64,000 bases of DNA from Lachnospiraceae bacterium (GTDB taxonomy: Bacteria; Bacillota; Clostridia; Lachnospirales; Lachnospiraceae), in assembly GCA_045597325.1 (NCBI GenBank), contig JAZLJJ010000011.1:14426-78425 (forward strand). Direction: 5' to 3'. The notes under the pieces were generated by a model, which worked only from the letters and a program-made list of their open reading frames with translations, was not told the origin of the DNA and ran no database searches. Positions 3,645 through 49,551 of the stretch are shown here, in pieces; position 1 is the stretch's first letter, and each line of letters begins with the position of its first letter. The position numbers and the translations under genes were made by a program.

Positions 3645-5753
3645 ATGGCTGAAAAATTGACCGAGATTTTCGGAAAGGACGTATTTAACGAAACGGTTAT
3701 GGCAGAACGTCTTCCGAAGGAAACCTTTGAGGCATGGAAACATGCCATGAACAATCATGAAACACTCAGCAAGGAAGTTGCACAGGTGATTGCGGGATGC
3801 ATGAAGGACTGGGCTCTGGAACACGGAGCAACACACTATACGCACTGGTTCCAGCCGATGACCGGAATTACAGCCGAGAAGCATGATTCCTTTATTACTC
3901 CGGCACCGGCCGGTAAGGTAATGATGGAATTTTCCTATAAGGAGCTGATTAAGGGTGAGTCGGATGCATCTTCATTTCCGAGCGGCGGTCTGCGTGCCAC
4001 ATTTGAAGCACGCGGCTATACCGCATGGGATTTTACGTCGCCGGCCTTTTTGAGAGAGGATGCTGCGGGTGTTACCCTGTGCATTCCGACCGCATTTTGT
4101 TCCTATACGGGAGAAGCACTCGACATGAAAACACCGCTTCTTCGTTCTATGGAGGCGGTCAGCAAGCAGGCAGTCCGGATTCTTCACCTCTTCGGACACG
4201 ATGATGTGAAGCGCGTTGACTGTTCGGTCGGAGCCGAGCAGGAGTATTTCCTTGTGGATCATAACTCCTATATGAAACGGGAGGATTTGATTTTTACCGG
4301 ACGGACGCTGTTCGGTGCGAAACCGCCGAAGGGACAGGAAATGGATGACCACTATTTCGGAAGTCTGAAAGAGCGTGTTGCGTCCTTCATGAAAGAATTG
4401 AACAATGAGCTTTGGAAGCTGGGCATTTATGCCAAAACACAGCACAACGAAGCGGCACCGGCACAGCATGAGCTGGCACCGGTATATACAACGGCAAACA
4501 TTTCCACAGATCATAATCAGCTGATTATGGAGTGCATGAAGAAGGTTGCCAAGCGTCACGGGCTGGAATGCCTGCTGCACGAGAAGCCGTTTGCCGGAGT
4601 GAACGGTTCCGGTAAGCATAACAACTGGTCACTCGTGACCGATACCGGCAAGAATCTGCTGAATCCCGGTAAGACACCGAATGAAAATGTGCAGTTCCTG
4701 CTGTTCCTGACAGCGGTTTTGGAAGCTGTTGACAACCATGCCGATCTGCTTCGCATTGCCGCGGCCAACCCCGGAAACGATCAGCGTCTCGGAGCAAATG
4801 AGGCACCGCCCGCGATTATTTCCGTATTCCTCGGTGCACAGCTGGACGACGTGGTTACTCAGCTGATTGAAACCGGTGAAGCAAAACGTCTGAAAAAGGA
4901 AGGCCGCCTGTATACGGGCGTTTCCACGTTGCCCTCCATCGGACGGGATGCGACCGACAGAAACCGTACGTCGCCGTTTGCATTTACCGGAAACAAGTTC
5001 GAGTTCCGTTCCGTCGGTTCCTCGATGTCCATTGCCGATGCCAATACGACGCTCAATACGATTGTTGCCGAGGCACTGGAGCGGTTTGCCGATATTCTGG
5101 AACAGGCGGATGATTTTGAACAGTGCGTACATGACCTGATTAAGTCGTCCCTTGCGGACCACGAGAGAATCATTTTCAACGGAAACGGATATTCCGAAGA
5201 ATGGGTGAAGGAAGCGGAGCGCAGAGGCCTGCCGAACCTTCGTTCCATGGTGGATGCCATCCCGTCGCTTGTGACTCCGAAGGCAGTGGAAACTTTCGGT
5301 CATCAGGGAGTATTTACCGAGACCGAACTGATGAGCCGTGCGGAAATCGATTATGAAATTTACGCAAAGGCAATCAATATTGAAGCCAGAACCATGATTT
5401 CCATGGCAAGCTGCAAATATATTCCGTCCGTGATTCGGTTTACGACACGGCTGGCGGAATCGATTAATGCAATCAACGATGCGGTTCCGGAGGCGGATAA
5501 CAGTGTTCAGATTGAGCTTCTGATGTCCACATCCAAACTGCTGCGTGAGGCACAGGATGCGTTGAACCGGTTGAAATCACTGGACGAAGAAGCCGTTAAC
5601 AAGTCTCAGGGCAAGGAAATGGCGTTGTTCTTCCGCAATGAGATTGTACCGGCGATGGAAGCGTTGAGAACTCCGATTGACCGTTTGGAAATGCTGGTTG
5701 ACCGCGATTTGTGGCCGGTTCCGACGTATTCGGAATTGTTATTTGAAATCTGA
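3645..5753 (+). CDS. glnN: type III glutamine synthetase
   Basis: 702 aa, the GSIII size class. Motifs GVNGSGKHNNWS and NKFEFRSVGSS. GAGG RBS 7 nt upstream. Confidence 0.9.
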   Translation: MAEKLTEIFGKDVFNETVMAERLPKETFEAWKHAMNNHETLSKEVAQVIAGCMKDWALEHGATHYTHWFQPMTGITAEKHDSFITPAPAGKVMMEFSYKELIKGESDASSFPSGGLRATFEARGYTAWDFTSPAFLREDAAGVTLCIPTAFCSYTGEALDMKTPLLRSMEAVSKQAVRILHLFGHDDVKRVDCSVGAEQEYFLVDHNSYMKREDLIFTGRTLFGAKPPKGQEMDDHYFGSLKERVASFMKELNNELWKLGIYAKTQHNEAAPAQHELAPVYTTANISTDHNQLIMECMKKVAKRHGLECLLHEKPFAGVNGSGKHNNWSLVTDTGKNLLNPGKTPNENVQFLLFLTAVLEAVDNHADLLRIAAANPGNDQRLGANEAPPAIISVFLGAQLDDVVTQLIETGEAKRLKKEGRLYTGVSTLPSIGRDATDRNRTSPFAFTGNKFEFRSVGSSMSIADANTTLNTIVAEALERFADILEQADDFEQCVHDLIKSSLADHERIIFNGNGYSEEWVKEAERRGLPNLRSMVDAIPSLVTPKAVETFGHQGVFTETELMSRAEIDYEIYAKAINIEARTMISMASCKYIPSVIRFTTRLAESINAINDAVPEADNSVQIELLMSTSKLLREAQDALNRLKSLDEEAVNKSQGKEMALFFRNEIVPAMEALRTPIDRLEMLVDRDLWPVPTYSELLFEI

Positions 5754-14026: not shown

Positions 14027-14056
14027 CACCGTATTCATAGAATACGGTGTTTTTTT
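14027..14056 (+). terminator. rho-independent terminator of the tRNA cluster
   Basis: CACCGTATTC-ATA-GAATACGGTG followed by T7. Confidence 0.85.
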
Positions 14057-14220
14057 ATCTCATAGGTAAGTTCGTCCTATGAGATAAAAAAAGCTCCGCG
14101 GGGATGCACACGCCTGTGCAGAGGAAAAATGTCGCTTCGCGGGGATGCACACGTTTTTGGCCGGGGAAATGGTCGCTTCGCGACGCAAAAGCGGCGCAGC
14201 GTGTCATAAGCAACATGCAT
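14057..14220 (+). repeat. structured ~130-nt intergenic element, copy 1 (diverged, with an internal partial duplication)
   Basis: Starts ATCTCATAGGTAAGTTCGTCCTATGAGATAAAAAAAGCTCCGCGGGGATGCACACGCCTGTGCAGAGGAAAAATGTCGCTTCGCG. The GGGGATGCACACG...GTCGCTTCGCGAC module then repeats, and the 3' hairpin is degenerate. Confidence 0.85.
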
Positions 14221-14387
14221 TCATATACGACAGGCTGTTTTACAATTAACAAAAATGTAACGGTTTTGAATGTTGTTTTGTAACAATCGTTTGATATAAT
14301 GAAACCATAGGAACGAAAATACAATGACAGTATCAACCGACGCATGAGAAAACGCAGAGAATAAAAAGCAATGAGGAGGTAAGGAGT

Positions 14388-20160: not shown

Positions 20161-20835
20161 ATGGAAGAAGTAACGGTACTGGTGGTTGATGACGAAGCAA
20201 GAATGCGCAAGCTGGTTTGCGATTTCCTGGAAAAGCACGGATATAAGACGCTGGAAGCGGAAGACGGAGAACAGGCGCTGGATGTGTTCTTTGACAAGAA
20301 AAATATTGATTTGGTTATTTTGGACGTTATGATGCCGAAGATGGACGGCTGGCAGGTATGCAAGGAAATCCGGCAGTTTTCCAGGGTGCCGATTATTATG
20401 CTGACGGCCCGCACGGAAGAGCGTGATGAATTGCTCGGATTTAAGCTCGGAGTGGATGAATATATCGGAAAGCCGTTCAGCCCCAAGATTCTGATGGCAC
20501 GTGTCGATGCGATTTTGCGTCGTACCGGCCCGGAGGAAGAAAGTCTTGCCATCGGCGGAATCGTAATCGACAAGACGGCTCACAATGTTACCATCGACGG
20601 TACATTGGTTGATTTGAGTGTCAAGGAATTTGAGCTGTTGTCGTACTTTATGATGAATAAGGGCGTGGCACTGTCCCGTGAGAAAATCCTCAACAACGTG
20701 TGGAATTACGATTACTACGGGGATGCCAGAACCATTGATACCCATGTGAAGAAACTTCGCAGCAAGATGGGTGAAAAGGGAGATTACATCAAAACCATTT
20801 GGGGTATGGGATATAAATTTGACCCCGAACTGTAA
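20161..20835 (+). CDS. OmpR/PhoB-family response regulator
   Basis: Receiver LVVDDE...LVILDVMMPKMDG and winged helix ...IKTIWGMGYKF. ATG 20161 has an RBS (the ORF is open from 20056). Confidence 0.9.
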   Translation: MEEVTVLVVDDEARMRKLVCDFLEKHGYKTLEAEDGEQALDVFFDKKNIDLVILDVMMPKMDGWQVCKEIRQFSRVPIIMLTARTEERDELLGFKLGVDEYIGKPFSPKILMARVDAILRRTGPEEESLAIGGIVIDKTAHNVTIDGTLVDLSVKEFELLSYFMMNKGVALSREKILNNVWNYDYYGDARTIDTHVKKLRSKMGEKGDYIKTIWGMGYKFDPEL

Positions 20836-47140: not shown

Positions 47141-47268
47141 CGAGCGGCCGGAGCGGCGATGTAACAAGGCCGCAGAACGCCGGAGAAACCCGCTCTCGAG
47201 CGGCCGGAGCGGCGATGTGACAAGGCCGCAGAACGCCGGAGGAACCTGCTCTCGAGCGGCCGGAACAG
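47141..47268. repeat. tandem repeat, 56 bp x 2.3, between deoC and deoD
   Basis: CGAGCGGCCGGAGCGGCGATGT(A/G)ACAAGGCCGCAGAACGCCGGAG(A/G)AAC(C/-)C(G/T)CTCT at 47141 and 47197, with a partial unit at 47253. Confidence 0.9.
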
Positions 47269-47296: not shown

Positions 47297-48046
47297 ATGG
47301 GAACAAATTATCCTACCCCGCATATTGCCTGCACACCGGATGATTTTGCGAAAACGGTGCTGATGCCGGGCGATCCGCTGCGGGCCAAATTCATAGCGGA
47401 AACGTATCTGAAAGATGCCGTTTTGGTCAATAACGTGCGCGGCGTGAACGGTTACACGGGAACATATGAAGGCACCCGGGTGTCGGTCATGGCCAGCGGT
47501 ATGGGAATGCCGGCAATCGGAATTTACAGCTATGAGCTGTATAATTTCTTCGGCGTGGACAACATTATCCGGATCGGTTCCGCGGGCGCATACCGTGACG
47601 ACATTGCGGTAATGGACCTGGTCATCGGGCAGGGAGCCTGCTACGAAAGCGGATACGCGGGACAGTTTAACCTGCCCGGAACGTACTCCGCCATTGCCGA
47701 TTACAAGCTTCTTTCTACGGCAGTAGAATTAGCGAAATCAAGGAAAATGAAGTATCACGTCGGAAATCTCCTGTCCAGTGATTATTTTTACGGAGATCCC
47801 GGTGCATGGACCGCAGCAGAGCAGCCGGCAGCCGCATGGGGTAAAATGGGAGTGATGGCAGTGGAAATGGAAGCGGCGGCATTGTACATGAATGCGGCGC
47901 GCGCCGGAAAGAGGGCACTGGCCATCTGTACGGTGTCCGATCATTTGCTCCGCGAGGAACACATTTCCGCAGAGGAACGCCAGCTGTCGCTGACCGAAAT
48001 GATTGAATTGGCACTGCAGACGGCGGTGGCAATGGACCGCGAATAA
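47297..48046 (+). CDS. deoD: purine nucleoside phosphorylase, DeoD type
   Basis: VLMPGDPLRAKFIAETYL...NNVRG..GYTGTY.G..VSVM.SGMGMP..GIYS.EL. Confidence 0.93.
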   Translation: MGTNYPTPHIACTPDDFAKTVLMPGDPLRAKFIAETYLKDAVLVNNVRGVNGYTGTYEGTRVSVMASGMGMPAIGIYSYELYNFFGVDNIIRIGSAGAYRDDIAVMDLVIGQGACYESGYAGQFNLPGTYSAIADYKLLSTAVELAKSRKMKYHVGNLLSSDYFYGDPGAWTAAEQPAAAWGKMGVMAVEMEAAALYMNAARAGKRALAICTVSDHLLREEHISAEERQLSLTEMIELALQTAVAMDRE

Positions 48047-48067
48047 TAAAAAGACGGAAAATGAGAC

Positions 48068-48097
48068 CCCGGCTTCGATGAGGAGCCGGGATTTTTT
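48068..48097 (+). terminator. rho-independent terminator after deoD
   Basis: CCCGGCT-TCGATGAGG-AGCCGGG-A-T6. Confidence 0.85.
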
Positions 48098-48276
48098 ATC
48101 TCACAGGAAAGTTCGTCCTGTGAGATAAAAAACGCTCCGCGAGAATGCACACGCCTGTGCAGAGGAAAGATGTCGCTTCGCGACGCACAGGCGGCGCGAG
48201 CATATCGCAAGCGATATGCTTTGTTCTCTCACAGGAAAGTTCGTCCTGTGAGAAAAAAACGCTCCGCGAGGATGCA
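48098..48276 (+). repeat. structured ~130-nt intergenic element, copy 6, plus a second hairpin unit; both hairpins carry compensatory changes
   Basis: CTCACAGGAAAGTTCGTCCTGTGAG (twice) where the other copies have CTCATAGGAAAGTTCGTCCTATGAG. Confidence 0.95.
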
Positions 48277-48396
48277 GACTCATTTTCAAACAGGCTCGAA
48301 ACCGGCTGCGCAGAAGGCAGAAATGCAGTGTCCGGCGCAGGGATGAATGCCGCTGTTGTGTACTTTGACGAAAAGAAGGTTATTTCGGTTATTTGA

Positions 48397-48425
48397 TTGA
48401 CATTTGACATACTCATTGTTAGAAT
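48397..48425 (+). promoter_or_regulatory. sigma-A type promoter of trpS
   Basis: TTGACA (48397-48402), 17 nt, TAGAAT (48420-48425). It lies about 40 nt upstream of the ATG. Confidence 0.65.
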
Positions 48426-48438
48426 TATACTTTGGTAA

Positions 48439-49551
<1,113 letters not shown>

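What the first reader, a model, noticed from the sequence alone, without database searches (positions are those of the whole stretch)
48098..48276. Compensatory double substitutions in the 5' hairpin of repeat copy 6
Copies 1-5 have the stem CTCATAGGA...TCCTATGAG. Both hairpins of copy 6 read CTCACAGGA...TCCTGTGAG, so T to C on one arm is matched by A to G on the other.

The remaining differences among copies fall in the loop: AAGTTCG becomes AACGTTCG in copy 2 and AAGCTCG in copy 4. Copy 1 has one change at the loop-closing pair. This pattern is what selection on the folded hairpin (as RNA or ssDNA), rather than on primary sequence, would produce.
Basis: seen in the sequence. Interest (0 to 1): 0.6.

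Follow-up and report, generated by a model that had tools for sequence, protein, structure and literature searches.

The report
Paired hairpin changes in mobile repeat
The matched T>C / A>G change is real, but it is one inherited variant of a small gene-less mobile element that lands behind transcription terminators; the hairpin seems to be needed when the element is copied, and the individual genomic copies otherwise decay without compensation.

Summary
Both hairpins of copy 6 (48100-48124 and 48228-48252) read CTCACAGGA...TCCTGTGAG, against CTCATAGGA...TCCTATGAG elsewhere in the window.

It is a single event, not two. A third hairpin at another locus (contig C65) carries the same pair and shares a core substitution. 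Second units of tandem arrays often inherit the private variants of the first unit.

The repeat is a ~128-nt element with more than 150 copies, mostly about 99% identical, in this 2.3-Mb Lachnospiraceae genome. It sits directly after terminator T-tracts and shows no target duplication. Its distribution among relatives is patchy.

Within this genome the evidence for compensation is weak. There are 21 uncompensated stem changes against one compensated lineage, and the chance of one such lineage is P≈0.04.

Across the family the stem clearly covaries. Six of nine pairs show compensated changes, and none of 500 shuffles reaches the observed values. The same C-G pair recurs in an unrelated genome.

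So pairing is constrained when the element spreads, not at each locus, and primary sequence (the ATAGGA/TCCTAT box and the loop) is conserved too. Position, replication-strand bias and loop flips favour folded single-stranded DNA over RNA. No transposase was found.

The parts
47297..48046 (+). Upstream gene (purine nucleoside phosphorylase deoD-like), whose terminator is the insertion site
   Evidence: ORF list. tblastn shows synteny with trpS in 11 relatives.
48068..48099 (+). Terminator of the upstream gene: stem CCCGGCT...AGCCGGG, then A, TTTTTT and AT. This is the target T-tract, which also pairs with the element's A-tract.
   Evidence: Sequence and DNA fold. Genome-wide, 89% of first-unit copies have a hairpin of dG<=-10 in this position, against 25% of control sites.
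48100..48124 (+). Leader hairpin 1 of copy 6, CTCACAGGA-AAGTTCG-TCCTGTGAG. Variant bases are C48104 and G48120.
   Evidence: Folded as DNA it gives -9.9 kcal/mol, against -8.5 for the canonical hairpin and -5.3 / -6.5 for the single-change intermediates.
48125..48132 (+). A-tract (ATAAAAAA), complementary to the T-tract on the other side of the hairpin. It extends the stem to about 17 bp.
48133..48199 (+). Structured core. The long stem pairs CGCCTGTGC (48152-48160) with GCACAGGCG (48185-48193) and encloses the hairpin GTCGC-TTC-GCGAC (48172-48184). Lineage marker G48169; private change A48144.
   Evidence: Fold. Nine pairs of the long stem covary across genomes. The marker is shared only with C65:96766.
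48200..48227 (+). 3' hairpin GCATATCGC-AA-GCGATATGC followed by TTTGTTCT. This terminator-like end is the element's right border.
   Evidence: The stem covaries across genomes. The right border comes from an empty/filled pair at another locus.
48228..48252 (+). Leader hairpin 2, the start of a second unit. It carries the same variant (C48232, G48248).
48253..48276 (+). A-tract plus the first 17 nt of the core of the second unit (AAAAAAACGCTCCGCGAGGATGCA). The unit is truncated after 48276.
   Evidence: 3'-truncated units are common in the genome.

Best explanation
Copy 6 is one insertion (one full unit plus a truncated second unit) of a ~128-nt, gene-less, non-autonomous mobile element.

Anatomy and behaviour of the element (shown):
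- It inserts, without target duplication, directly behind the T-tract of intrinsic terminators.
- It starts with a 25-nt leader hairpin. The stem is prolonged by pairing between the terminator's T-tract and an A-tract inside the element.
- It continues with a covarying stem-loop core and ends in a terminator-like hairpin plus TTTGTTCT.

The T>C / A>G pair arose once, in a source copy. That variant was then copied to at least two loci (C65:96766 and the deoD terminator at 48.1 kb). At 48.1 kb it was also duplicated locally, which is why both hairpins carry it.

Pairing of the leader hairpin is needed at the step where the element is copied or inserted. This is inferred. The folded species is most likely single-stranded DNA exposed on the lagging-strand template, recognised by a still unidentified enzyme. 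As a result, only variants that keep the stem spread, or the stem is repaired from its own partner arm during that step.

Once inserted, a copy is under no such constraint and accumulates uncompensated mismatches. The compensation is therefore a signature of the element's life cycle. It is not evidence for a structured RNA or a host function at this locus.
For: One lineage:
- The C65:96766 copy shares the hairpin pair and also the core change A>G (equivalent to window 48169). Only these 2 of 122 full copies have that change.
- Tandem second units share private variants of the first unit in copy 6, C21, C35, C37 and C61.

Mobile element:
- 156 near-full cores, mostly 95-100% identical to the query copy.
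- Of 18 same-genus genomes, only G003 holds many copies (30 matches); G014 has 2 weak partial matches and G007 one. 5 of 151 genera of the family have a hairpin match.
- An exact empty/filled pair with a sister MAG shows ...TATTTTTTTGT|CTTAAAACGG against ...TATTTTTTGT[CTCATAAG...GCTTTGTTCT]CTTAAAACGG, with no target duplication.
- The deoD-trpS spacer lacks the element in 9 relatives and in a ~93%-identical strain found in metagenomes.

Terminator targeting: 89% vs 25% with a strong upstream hairpin, p=7e-43.

Stem constraint at family level:
- 6/9 pairs compensated, 0/500 shuffles reach the observed values.
- The same C-G pair occurs in Ca. Choladousia with a different core.
- Subtype ATCACTGGG.../...CCCAGTGAT occurs in G003.
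- Single changes cost 2-3 kcal/mol; the double change costs none.

No constraint per copy: 52 uncompensated changes vs 2 compensated lineages, and G.T 17 vs A.C 16.

DNA rather than RNA:
- The top strand is the G-rich strand in 98/105 copies, against 78% of genes, p=4e-5.
- The loop is flipped in an orthologous copy of the sister MAG and in G003.
- The hairpin lies behind the terminator.

Pairing with the target: 33 flank variants are matched by complementary A-tract variants, against 3.8 expected (0/5000 shuffles).
Against: - No mobilising enzyme was found. Y1 (PF01797) and Y2 (PF04986) HUH transposases are absent from this genome. RVT_1 does not track the element. Y1 genes in other element-bearing genomes have no such hairpin nearby.
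- Some uncompensated stem variants also occur at 2-3 loci: G7>A twice, C18>T three times, A9>T twice. Spread is therefore not restricted to perfectly paired stems, or those changes are recurrent.
- Within this genome the compensated pair is a single event with P≈0.04.
- The strand bias could partly reflect terminator usage. Gene calls were crude, and the genome is a draft of 80 contigs.
- No transcript or structure-probing data could be obtained.
Confidence: 0.6

Rival explanations
1. Hairpin-templated mutation without selection. A single change in one arm is copied into the other arm when the palindrome folds in single-stranded DNA, either by quasi-palindrome template switching or by heteroduplex repair during insertion. 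Compensated pairs then arise mechanically.
For: - The outer stem shows the same phenomenon on a large scale. 33 idiosyncratic T-tract bases are mirrored by complementary A-tract bases (0/5000 shuffles).
- The A-tract varies at 8.8% per site, against 1.2% in the core.
- In the sister MAG, a new unit with a different core carries the locus-specific A-tract ATAAAACAAC.
- At another locus the flank CG is replaced by AT next to a new insertion.
Against: - Inner-stem mismatches are rarely converted: 21 singles against 1 compensated lineage here.
- Tandem second units, which share the constant flank TTTGTTCT, seldom show a matching AG and never the matching C. Continuous post-insertional correction is therefore unlikely.
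- A-tract variants are heritable within arrays, which also fits a guide-like target choice.
Confidence: 0.2
2. Pure chance. Two independent neutral transitions hit partner positions in one older copy, and local duplication put the result into both hairpins.
For: - It is one event only.
- P=0.037 under uniform placement of 23 substitutions, and higher if substitutions cluster in older copies.
- Copy 6 carries two further private changes.
- In Anaerobium-like G175, chance alone gives P≈0.3 for a compensated pair.
Against: - The identical pair recurs in an unrelated genome and inside a G003 subtype.
- Among otherwise canonical hairpins in 185,579 representative genomes, the double change (1 locus, plus 2 loci here) is about as frequent as each single intermediate (2 loci each).
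- The family-wide covariation test is positive.
Confidence: 0.12
3. The hairpin works as RNA at each locus, for example as a read-through or RNase III processing site, a stabiliser of the 3' end, or part of a small RNA. Host-level selection would keep it folded.
For: - The whole element folds strongly (z=-10).
- Its core stems covary across genomes (20/42 pairs).
- The upstream gene is co-oriented in about 83% of copies.
- The element carries terminator-like modules on both strands (reading of the sequence).
Against: - The hairpin starts after the terminator T-tract.
- Copies decay with uncompensated mismatches, and there is no excess of G.U-compatible changes (17 vs 16).
- The loop is flipped in an orthologous copy.
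- Presence or absence differs among congeners, and the element is absent at this locus in relatives.
- No Rfam family matches.
Confidence: 0.08

Closest known systems
IS200/IS605-family elements and their gene-less derivatives (PATEs), e.g. IS608, ISDra2
   Same: - Hairpins at or near both ends.
- Insertion 3' of a short T-rich target with no target duplication.
- Strong orientation bias with the replication strand.
- Base complementarity between the flank and a segment next to the left hairpin, as with guide and cleavage-site pairing in IS608 (from established knowledge).
   Different: - No Y1 HUH transposase in this genome or in G157.
- The left hairpin is a perfect 11-bp palindrome that abuts the insertion point.
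- The flank/element pairing is Watson-Crick over 7-9 nt and brackets the hairpin.
- The left and right hairpins are unrelated in sequence.
REP/BIME elements with RAYT (TnpA-REP)
   Same: High-copy extragenic palindromes downstream of genes, with orientation rules and clusters or tandems.
   Different: - No GTAG-type head and no RAYT gene (PF01797 absent).
- The unit is 128 nt with several covarying stems, not a 20-40-nt palindrome.
- Near-identical copies and a patchy distribution indicate a recent burst.
Bacterial class C (IIC) group II introns
   Same: They home to the position just after intrinsic terminator stem-loops, in the gene's orientation (from established knowledge).
   Different: The element is 128 nt, has no ribozyme domains and no matching RT. 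There is no Rfam hit.
Classical MITEs and related repeats (Correia, RUP, BOX, bcr1)
   Same: Small, structured, non-coding interspersed repeats in intergenic DNA. bcr1 of the Bacillus cereus group is reported to sit at TTTAT (recalled from memory, not tested).
   Different: No terminal inverted repeats between the two ends and no target-site duplication. The strict post-terminator position is also different.

Membership tests
IS200/IS605-type single-strand transposon (PATE) | Y1 HUH transposase (PF01797) available in the genome | tested here: not met
   No match in G000 (97% complete) or G157. It is present in element-free congeners G002, G005 and G009. Y1 loci of G159 and G175 have no such hairpin nearby.
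IS200/IS605-type single-strand transposon (PATE) | Insertion 3' of a short specific sequence, without target-site duplication | tested here: met
   Empty/filled pair of MAG L007 vs G000 C21: the insert lies directly after ...TTTTGT, with at most a 2-nt ambiguity (CT) and no duplication. Across the genome the flank ends in xT after a T-tract.
IS200/IS605-type single-strand transposon (PATE) | Subterminal hairpins at both ends | tested here: met
   Leader hairpin at the 5' end and GCATATCGC/GCGATATGC at the 3' end. The two are not alike in sequence.
IS200/IS605-type single-strand transposon (PATE) | Active strand lies on the lagging-strand template (orientation follows replication) | tested here: inconclusive
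   98/105 copies have the top strand on the G-rich strand, against 78% of genes (p=4e-5). This rests on GC skew of draft contigs, not on a mapped origin.
REP/BIME with RAYT | Short imperfect palindrome with a conserved GTAG-like head, and a RAYT gene flanked by REPs | tested here: not met
   The head is CTCATAGG and the unit is 128 nt. No PF01797 match.
MITE of a DDE transposon | Terminal inverted repeats matching an autonomous IS, and a target-site duplication | tested here: not met
   The ends CTCATAGG... and ...GCTTTGTTCT are not inverted repeats, and there is no duplication. The IS1182/IS5-like element found in the hairpins has different ends, GATTAGGGTGTC.
Group IIC intron | Group II ribozyme domains and an intron-encoded RT | tested here: not met
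   No Rfam hit even at E<=10. RVT_1 occurs once per genome whether or not the element is present, and is absent in G159.
Described structured RNA family (Rfam 15) | Match to a curated covariance model | tested here: not met
   Only tRNAs pass the gathering threshold in the window. Over 47950-48470 there are only chance-level hits.
   Family level: 6/9 pairs compensated, 0/500 shuffles. Within genomes: 52 uncompensated changes against 2 compensated lineages.

The most novel reading that the evidence does not exclude
The element family is a new kind of HUH-less, replication-coupled single-strand mobile element. The 7-9-nt A-tract beside its leader hairpin either acts as a heritable, reprogrammable guide that base-pairs with the U/T-tract of intrinsic terminators to choose the insertion site, or is rewritten from that tract at insertion. 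The enzyme that mobilises it has not been described.
Probability: 0.3. Interest if true: 0.8.

Novelty: new variant of a known kind. Interest (0 to 1): 0.45.

Why it matters
Taken alone, the compensated pair is a small observation and it says nothing about a function at the deoD locus.

It does mark the leader hairpin as the part of an abundant, apparently undescribed Lachnospiraceae mobile element that must stay paired for the element to spread. Together with the T-tract/A-tract complementarity, this gives concrete mutants for testing how the element is mobilised: canonical, C.A, T.G and C-G hairpins, plus altered A-tracts.

Elements that home to terminators reshape 3' ends and operon boundaries in gut bacteria, and they break short-read assemblies. 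Many of the 80 contigs of this genome end in the repeat.

Tried and rejected
- Rfam at gathering threshold and at E<=10: no family.
- Literature search for the hairpin sequence and for terminator-targeting repeats in Lachnospiraceae or Firmicutes: nothing relevant.
- Exact empty site at the deoD-trpS locus: same-genus genomes are only 68-74% identical, so only the shorter spacer (125-175 nt vs 420 nt) could be shown. Metagenome contigs of a ~93% strain replace 48047-48347 by 80 other letters, which is not a clean empty site.
- Partner enzyme: PF01797, PF04986 and PF00078 do not track the element. No longer element bounded by the same ends was seen among 5'- and 3'-only fragments.
- The five copies preceded by the identical flank ACCCTAATC are not autonomous copies. 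They are insertions of an unrelated DDE IS into the hairpin.
- RNA evidence: no RNA runs hold the locus.
- Orientation test in a complete genome (Anaerocolumna sedimenticola): only 4 hairpins, too few.
- Viral contigs and JGI metagenome contigs: no exact hairpin matches.
- MAFFT misaligned hairpins of different length, so stems were compared as base-anchored 9-nt arms instead.
- Post-insertional continuous correction as the sole source of flank/A-tract complementarity was rejected, because tandem units with the constant flank are rarely matched.

Full report
**1. What is at 48098-48276**

The stretch follows the stop of a deoD-like gene (47297-48046) and its terminator. The terminator has the stem CCCGGCT/AGCCGGG, then A, TTTTTT and AT.

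After the terminator the order is:
- a 25-nt hairpin, CTCACAGGA-AAGTTCG-TCCTGTGAG (48100-48124)
- an A-tract
- a GC-rich core
- a second hairpin, GCATATCGC-AA-GCGATATGC
- TTTGTTCT
- the first hairpin again (48228-48252)
- an A-tract and 17 nt of core, after which similarity ends at 48276

A pattern search finds six such hairpins in the window and none in shuffles. Four have the CATAGG/CCTATG stem and the two in copy 6 have CACAGG/CCTGTG.

Copy 4 also has a second hairpin (from 35325), and it begins GTCATAGG, which is an uncompensated change at the outermost pair.

**2. The repeat genome-wide**

The window's genome is 2.30 Mb in 80 contigs, with 47% G+C. It holds 156 near-full cores plus 33 fragments. 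There are 157 hairpins within four mismatches of the canonical 25-mer, and 126 of them are exact. Most full copies are 95-100% identical to the query copy. Many contigs end in the repeat.

The exact empty/filled pair comes from a sister MAG (~93% identical) and shows the borders:
- empty: ...TATTTTTTTGT|CTTAAAACGG
- filled: ...TATTTTTTGT[CTCATAAG...GCTTTGTTCT]CTTAAAACGG

The T-tract and its final GT pre-exist, the insert starts at the hairpin, and nothing is duplicated.

Of 115 first units, 89% have a strong hairpin (dG<=-10) immediately upstream of the T-tract, against 25% of control TTTTTAT sites (p=7e-43).

Distribution is patchy. Of 18 same-genus genomes, only G003 has many copies (30 matches); G014 has 2 weak partial matches and G007 one. 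Five of 151 genera of the family have a hairpin match.

At the deoD-trpS spacer, relatives have 125-175 nt where this genome has 420 nt. A ~93% strain in gut metagenomes lacks 48047-48347.

Together these results show a recently amplified, non-autonomous mobile element that targets terminators. I reached and tested these points independently.

**3. The compensated pair is one event**

A third hairpin with CACAGG/CCTGTG lies at C65:96766-96790, behind a different terminator.

That copy and copy 6 also share the core change GGAAAAATG>GGAAAGATG (window 48169). No other of the 122 full copies has this change. The C65 copy equals the consensus plus these three changes. Copy 6 has two more private changes (A48144 and one A fewer in the A-tract). 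The variant therefore arose once and was then copied to another locus.

Within arrays, the second unit shares private variants of the first unit in five cases:
- copy 6 (the hairpin variant)
- C21 (ACT)
- C35 (AC)
- C37 (AG)
- C61

It does not in copy 4, C55, C66 and C72. The variants concerned have frequencies of 1-6%, so the concordant arrays must be local copies. The two hairpins of copy 6 thus count once.

**4. Is it more than chance, and what does it show?**

*Within this genome.* There are 21 uncompensated single stem changes: 7 G.T, 4 A.C and 10 transversion mismatches. Against these stands one compensated lineage. Placing 23 substitutions at random gives at least one compensated pair with P=0.037.

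*Over four genomes.* The count is 52 uncompensated changes against 2 compensated lineages. G.T and A.C are equally common (17 vs 16). Inserted copies decay neutrally.

*At family level* the picture reverses.
- Genome-specific consensus hairpins differ by compensated pairs: C-G in this genome, T-A in G159 and G157, and A-T in a G175 subfamily.
- Other subtypes at the same position are again perfect palindromes: TTCAATAGGA/TCCTATTGAA, GCATTATAGGA/TCCTATAATGC, ATCATAGGAAAT.../...ATTTCCTATGAT and ATCACTGGGAATTG/CAATTCCCAGTGAT.
- On 44 distinct base-anchored arm pairs, 91.9% of cells pair, 6 of 9 pairs have both-side changes (20 cells), and no shuffle of 500 reaches any measure. Slid controls pair in only 24-50% of cells.
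- The very same hairpin, CTCACAGGAAAGTTCGTCCTGTGAG, occurs in an unrelated Ca. Choladousia MAG with a different core.
- Among representative genomes, the otherwise canonical T.G and C.A intermediates occur at two loci each. The two-step state is thus about as common as each one-step state.
- Folded as DNA, the canonical hairpin gives -8.5 kcal/mol, the variant -9.9, the C.A intermediate -5.3 and the T.G intermediate -6.5.

Primary sequence is conserved as well. The exact 25-mer, loop included, is shared by Anaerobium, Anaerocolumna, Lachnoclostridium UBA903 and several MAGs whose cores differ. ATAGGA/TCCTAT is nearly invariant across subtypes.

The pairing requirement therefore acts on what can spread, and it acts together with sequence recognition.

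**5. The rest of the element is also structure-constrained**

In 12 elements from at least eight genomes, 20 of 42 predicted pairs show compensated changes. These include nine pairs of the long core stem and seven of the 3' hairpin. No Rfam family matches.

**6. RNA or DNA?**

Four observations bear on this:
- The hairpin begins after the terminator's T-tract.
- The element's top strand is the G-rich strand (leading-strand sequence, that is, the lagging-strand template) in 98 of 105 copies, against 78% of genes (p=4e-5). Where gene orientation and skew disagree, orientation mostly follows skew.
- The asymmetric loop is inverted in the sister MAG's orthologue of G000 C29:3174 and in some G003 copies.
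- There is no excess of wobble-compatible changes.

These favour a hairpin in single-stranded DNA, as in IS200/IS605-type transposition. This step is inference, and no RNA data were available.

**7. The stem reaches into the target**

The 7-9 nt before the hairpin (the terminator T-tract) and the 7-9 nt after it (the A-tract) are complementary, including idiosyncratic interruptions. Examples are TTTTGTTAT/ATAACAAAA, TTTTTAGT/ACTAAAAA..GAT/ATC....AAT/ATT.. and TTGTTTTAT/ATAAAACAA.

In 117 first units:
- 33 variant flank positions are mirrored by complementary A-tract variants, against 3.8±1.8 in shuffles (0/5000)
- 49 flank variants are unmatched
- 12 A-tract variants are unmatched

The A-tract varies at 8.8% per site, against 1.2% in the core and 0.9% in the stem.

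The flank pre-exists, so there are two possibilities. Either A-tract variants are heritable and bias the choice of target, like a guide; arrays do share them. Or the A-tract is corrected against the target when the strand folds at insertion; in the sister MAG a new unit with a different core carries the locus-specific A-tract. I could not separate the two. Tandem units with the constant flank TTTGTTCT are rarely matched, which argues against continuous correction after insertion.

The same templated correction is the main rival explanation for the inner-stem pair of copy 6.

**8. Enzyme**

Y1 and Y2 HUH transposases are absent from this genome. RVT_1 occurs once per genome in the genus whether or not the element is present, and is missing in element-bearing G159. 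Y1 genes in G159 and G175 have no such hairpin nearby.

Membership in IS200/IS605 therefore fails on its defining enzyme, although the behaviour is closest to that family.

**9. Verdict**

The compensated pair is a real lineage marker in a mobile element whose leader hairpin must pair to be propagated. It is not evidence for selection on a folded RNA at this locus. On the window's six copies alone it would not be significant.

Noticed in passing
Genome-wide; in the window at 14049-14058/14084-14092, 16106-16115/16141-16149, 28631-28640/28666-28674, 35186-35195/35221-35229, 42469-42478/42504-42512 and 48090-48099/48125-48133: The terminator T-tract before the hairpin and the A-tract after it are complementary, including locus-specific interruptions. 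33 positions match against 3.8 expected (0/5000 shuffles). The A-tract is about 7 times more variable than the core. It either acts as a guide for target choice or is rewritten from the target.
   Followed up: partly
G000 contig C80:~393-2245, and contig ends of C19, C22, C35, C37, C40, C48, C51, C65 and C74 (outside the window): A 1.85-kb IS with a 533-aa DDE transposase (DUF772 + DDE_Tnp_1_6, IS1182/IS5-like) and ends GATTAGGGTGTC... It sits inside the 5' arm of the leader hairpin, after CTCATAG, at six or more sites, apparently duplicating CTCATAG. This is an IS that targets the hairpin of another mobile element.
   Followed up: partly
Genome-wide (105 first-unit copies on contigs of at least 12 kb): The element's top strand is the G-rich (leading-strand sequence) strand in 93% of copies, against 78% for genes.
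   Followed up: partly
L001 (JAZUGQ MAG, 5345-5369) vs G000 C29:3174; G003 locus L026 vs L024: The asymmetric loop of the leader hairpin is inverted relative to the core in an orthologous copy of the sister MAG and in some G003 copies (flip/flop).
   Followed up: partly
Window 35325; G000 C34:8, C41:65, C41:2081, C42:78378, C56:201: At junctions between tandem units, the first base of the hairpin is changed (T, G or A) in 6 of 28 cases. It is never changed in about 125 hairpins that follow a gene terminator. In the sister MAG the junction reads TTTGTT(CC)ATTATAGG.
   Followed up: no
Window 14052-14240 (copy 1): Copy 1 carries a 41-nt internal insertion that repeats part of the core (GTCGCTTCGCGGGGATGCACACG...). 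It is the most diverged copy in the window (70% over 135 nt).
   Followed up: no
Window 47141-47264: A 56-nt unit repeated 2.2 times directly behind the deoC-like gene (95% matches). It is unrelated to the element.
   Followed up: no
G003 loci L023-L042: A same-genus genome has the same core (78-93% identical) joined to a different, longer leader hairpin (ATCATAGGAAAT(T)GC-GTT-GCATTTCCTATGAT). Conversely, the hairpin of this genome is joined to unrelated cores in other genera. Hairpin and core are exchangeable modules.
   Followed up: partly
MAG L011 vs G000 C25:~21190; MAG L009 vs G000 C64:~20320-20444: Where a terminator already carries a unit, a new unit is found between the T-tract and the resident unit (order: terminator, new, old). 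At one such site the flank CG is replaced by AT.
   Followed up: partly
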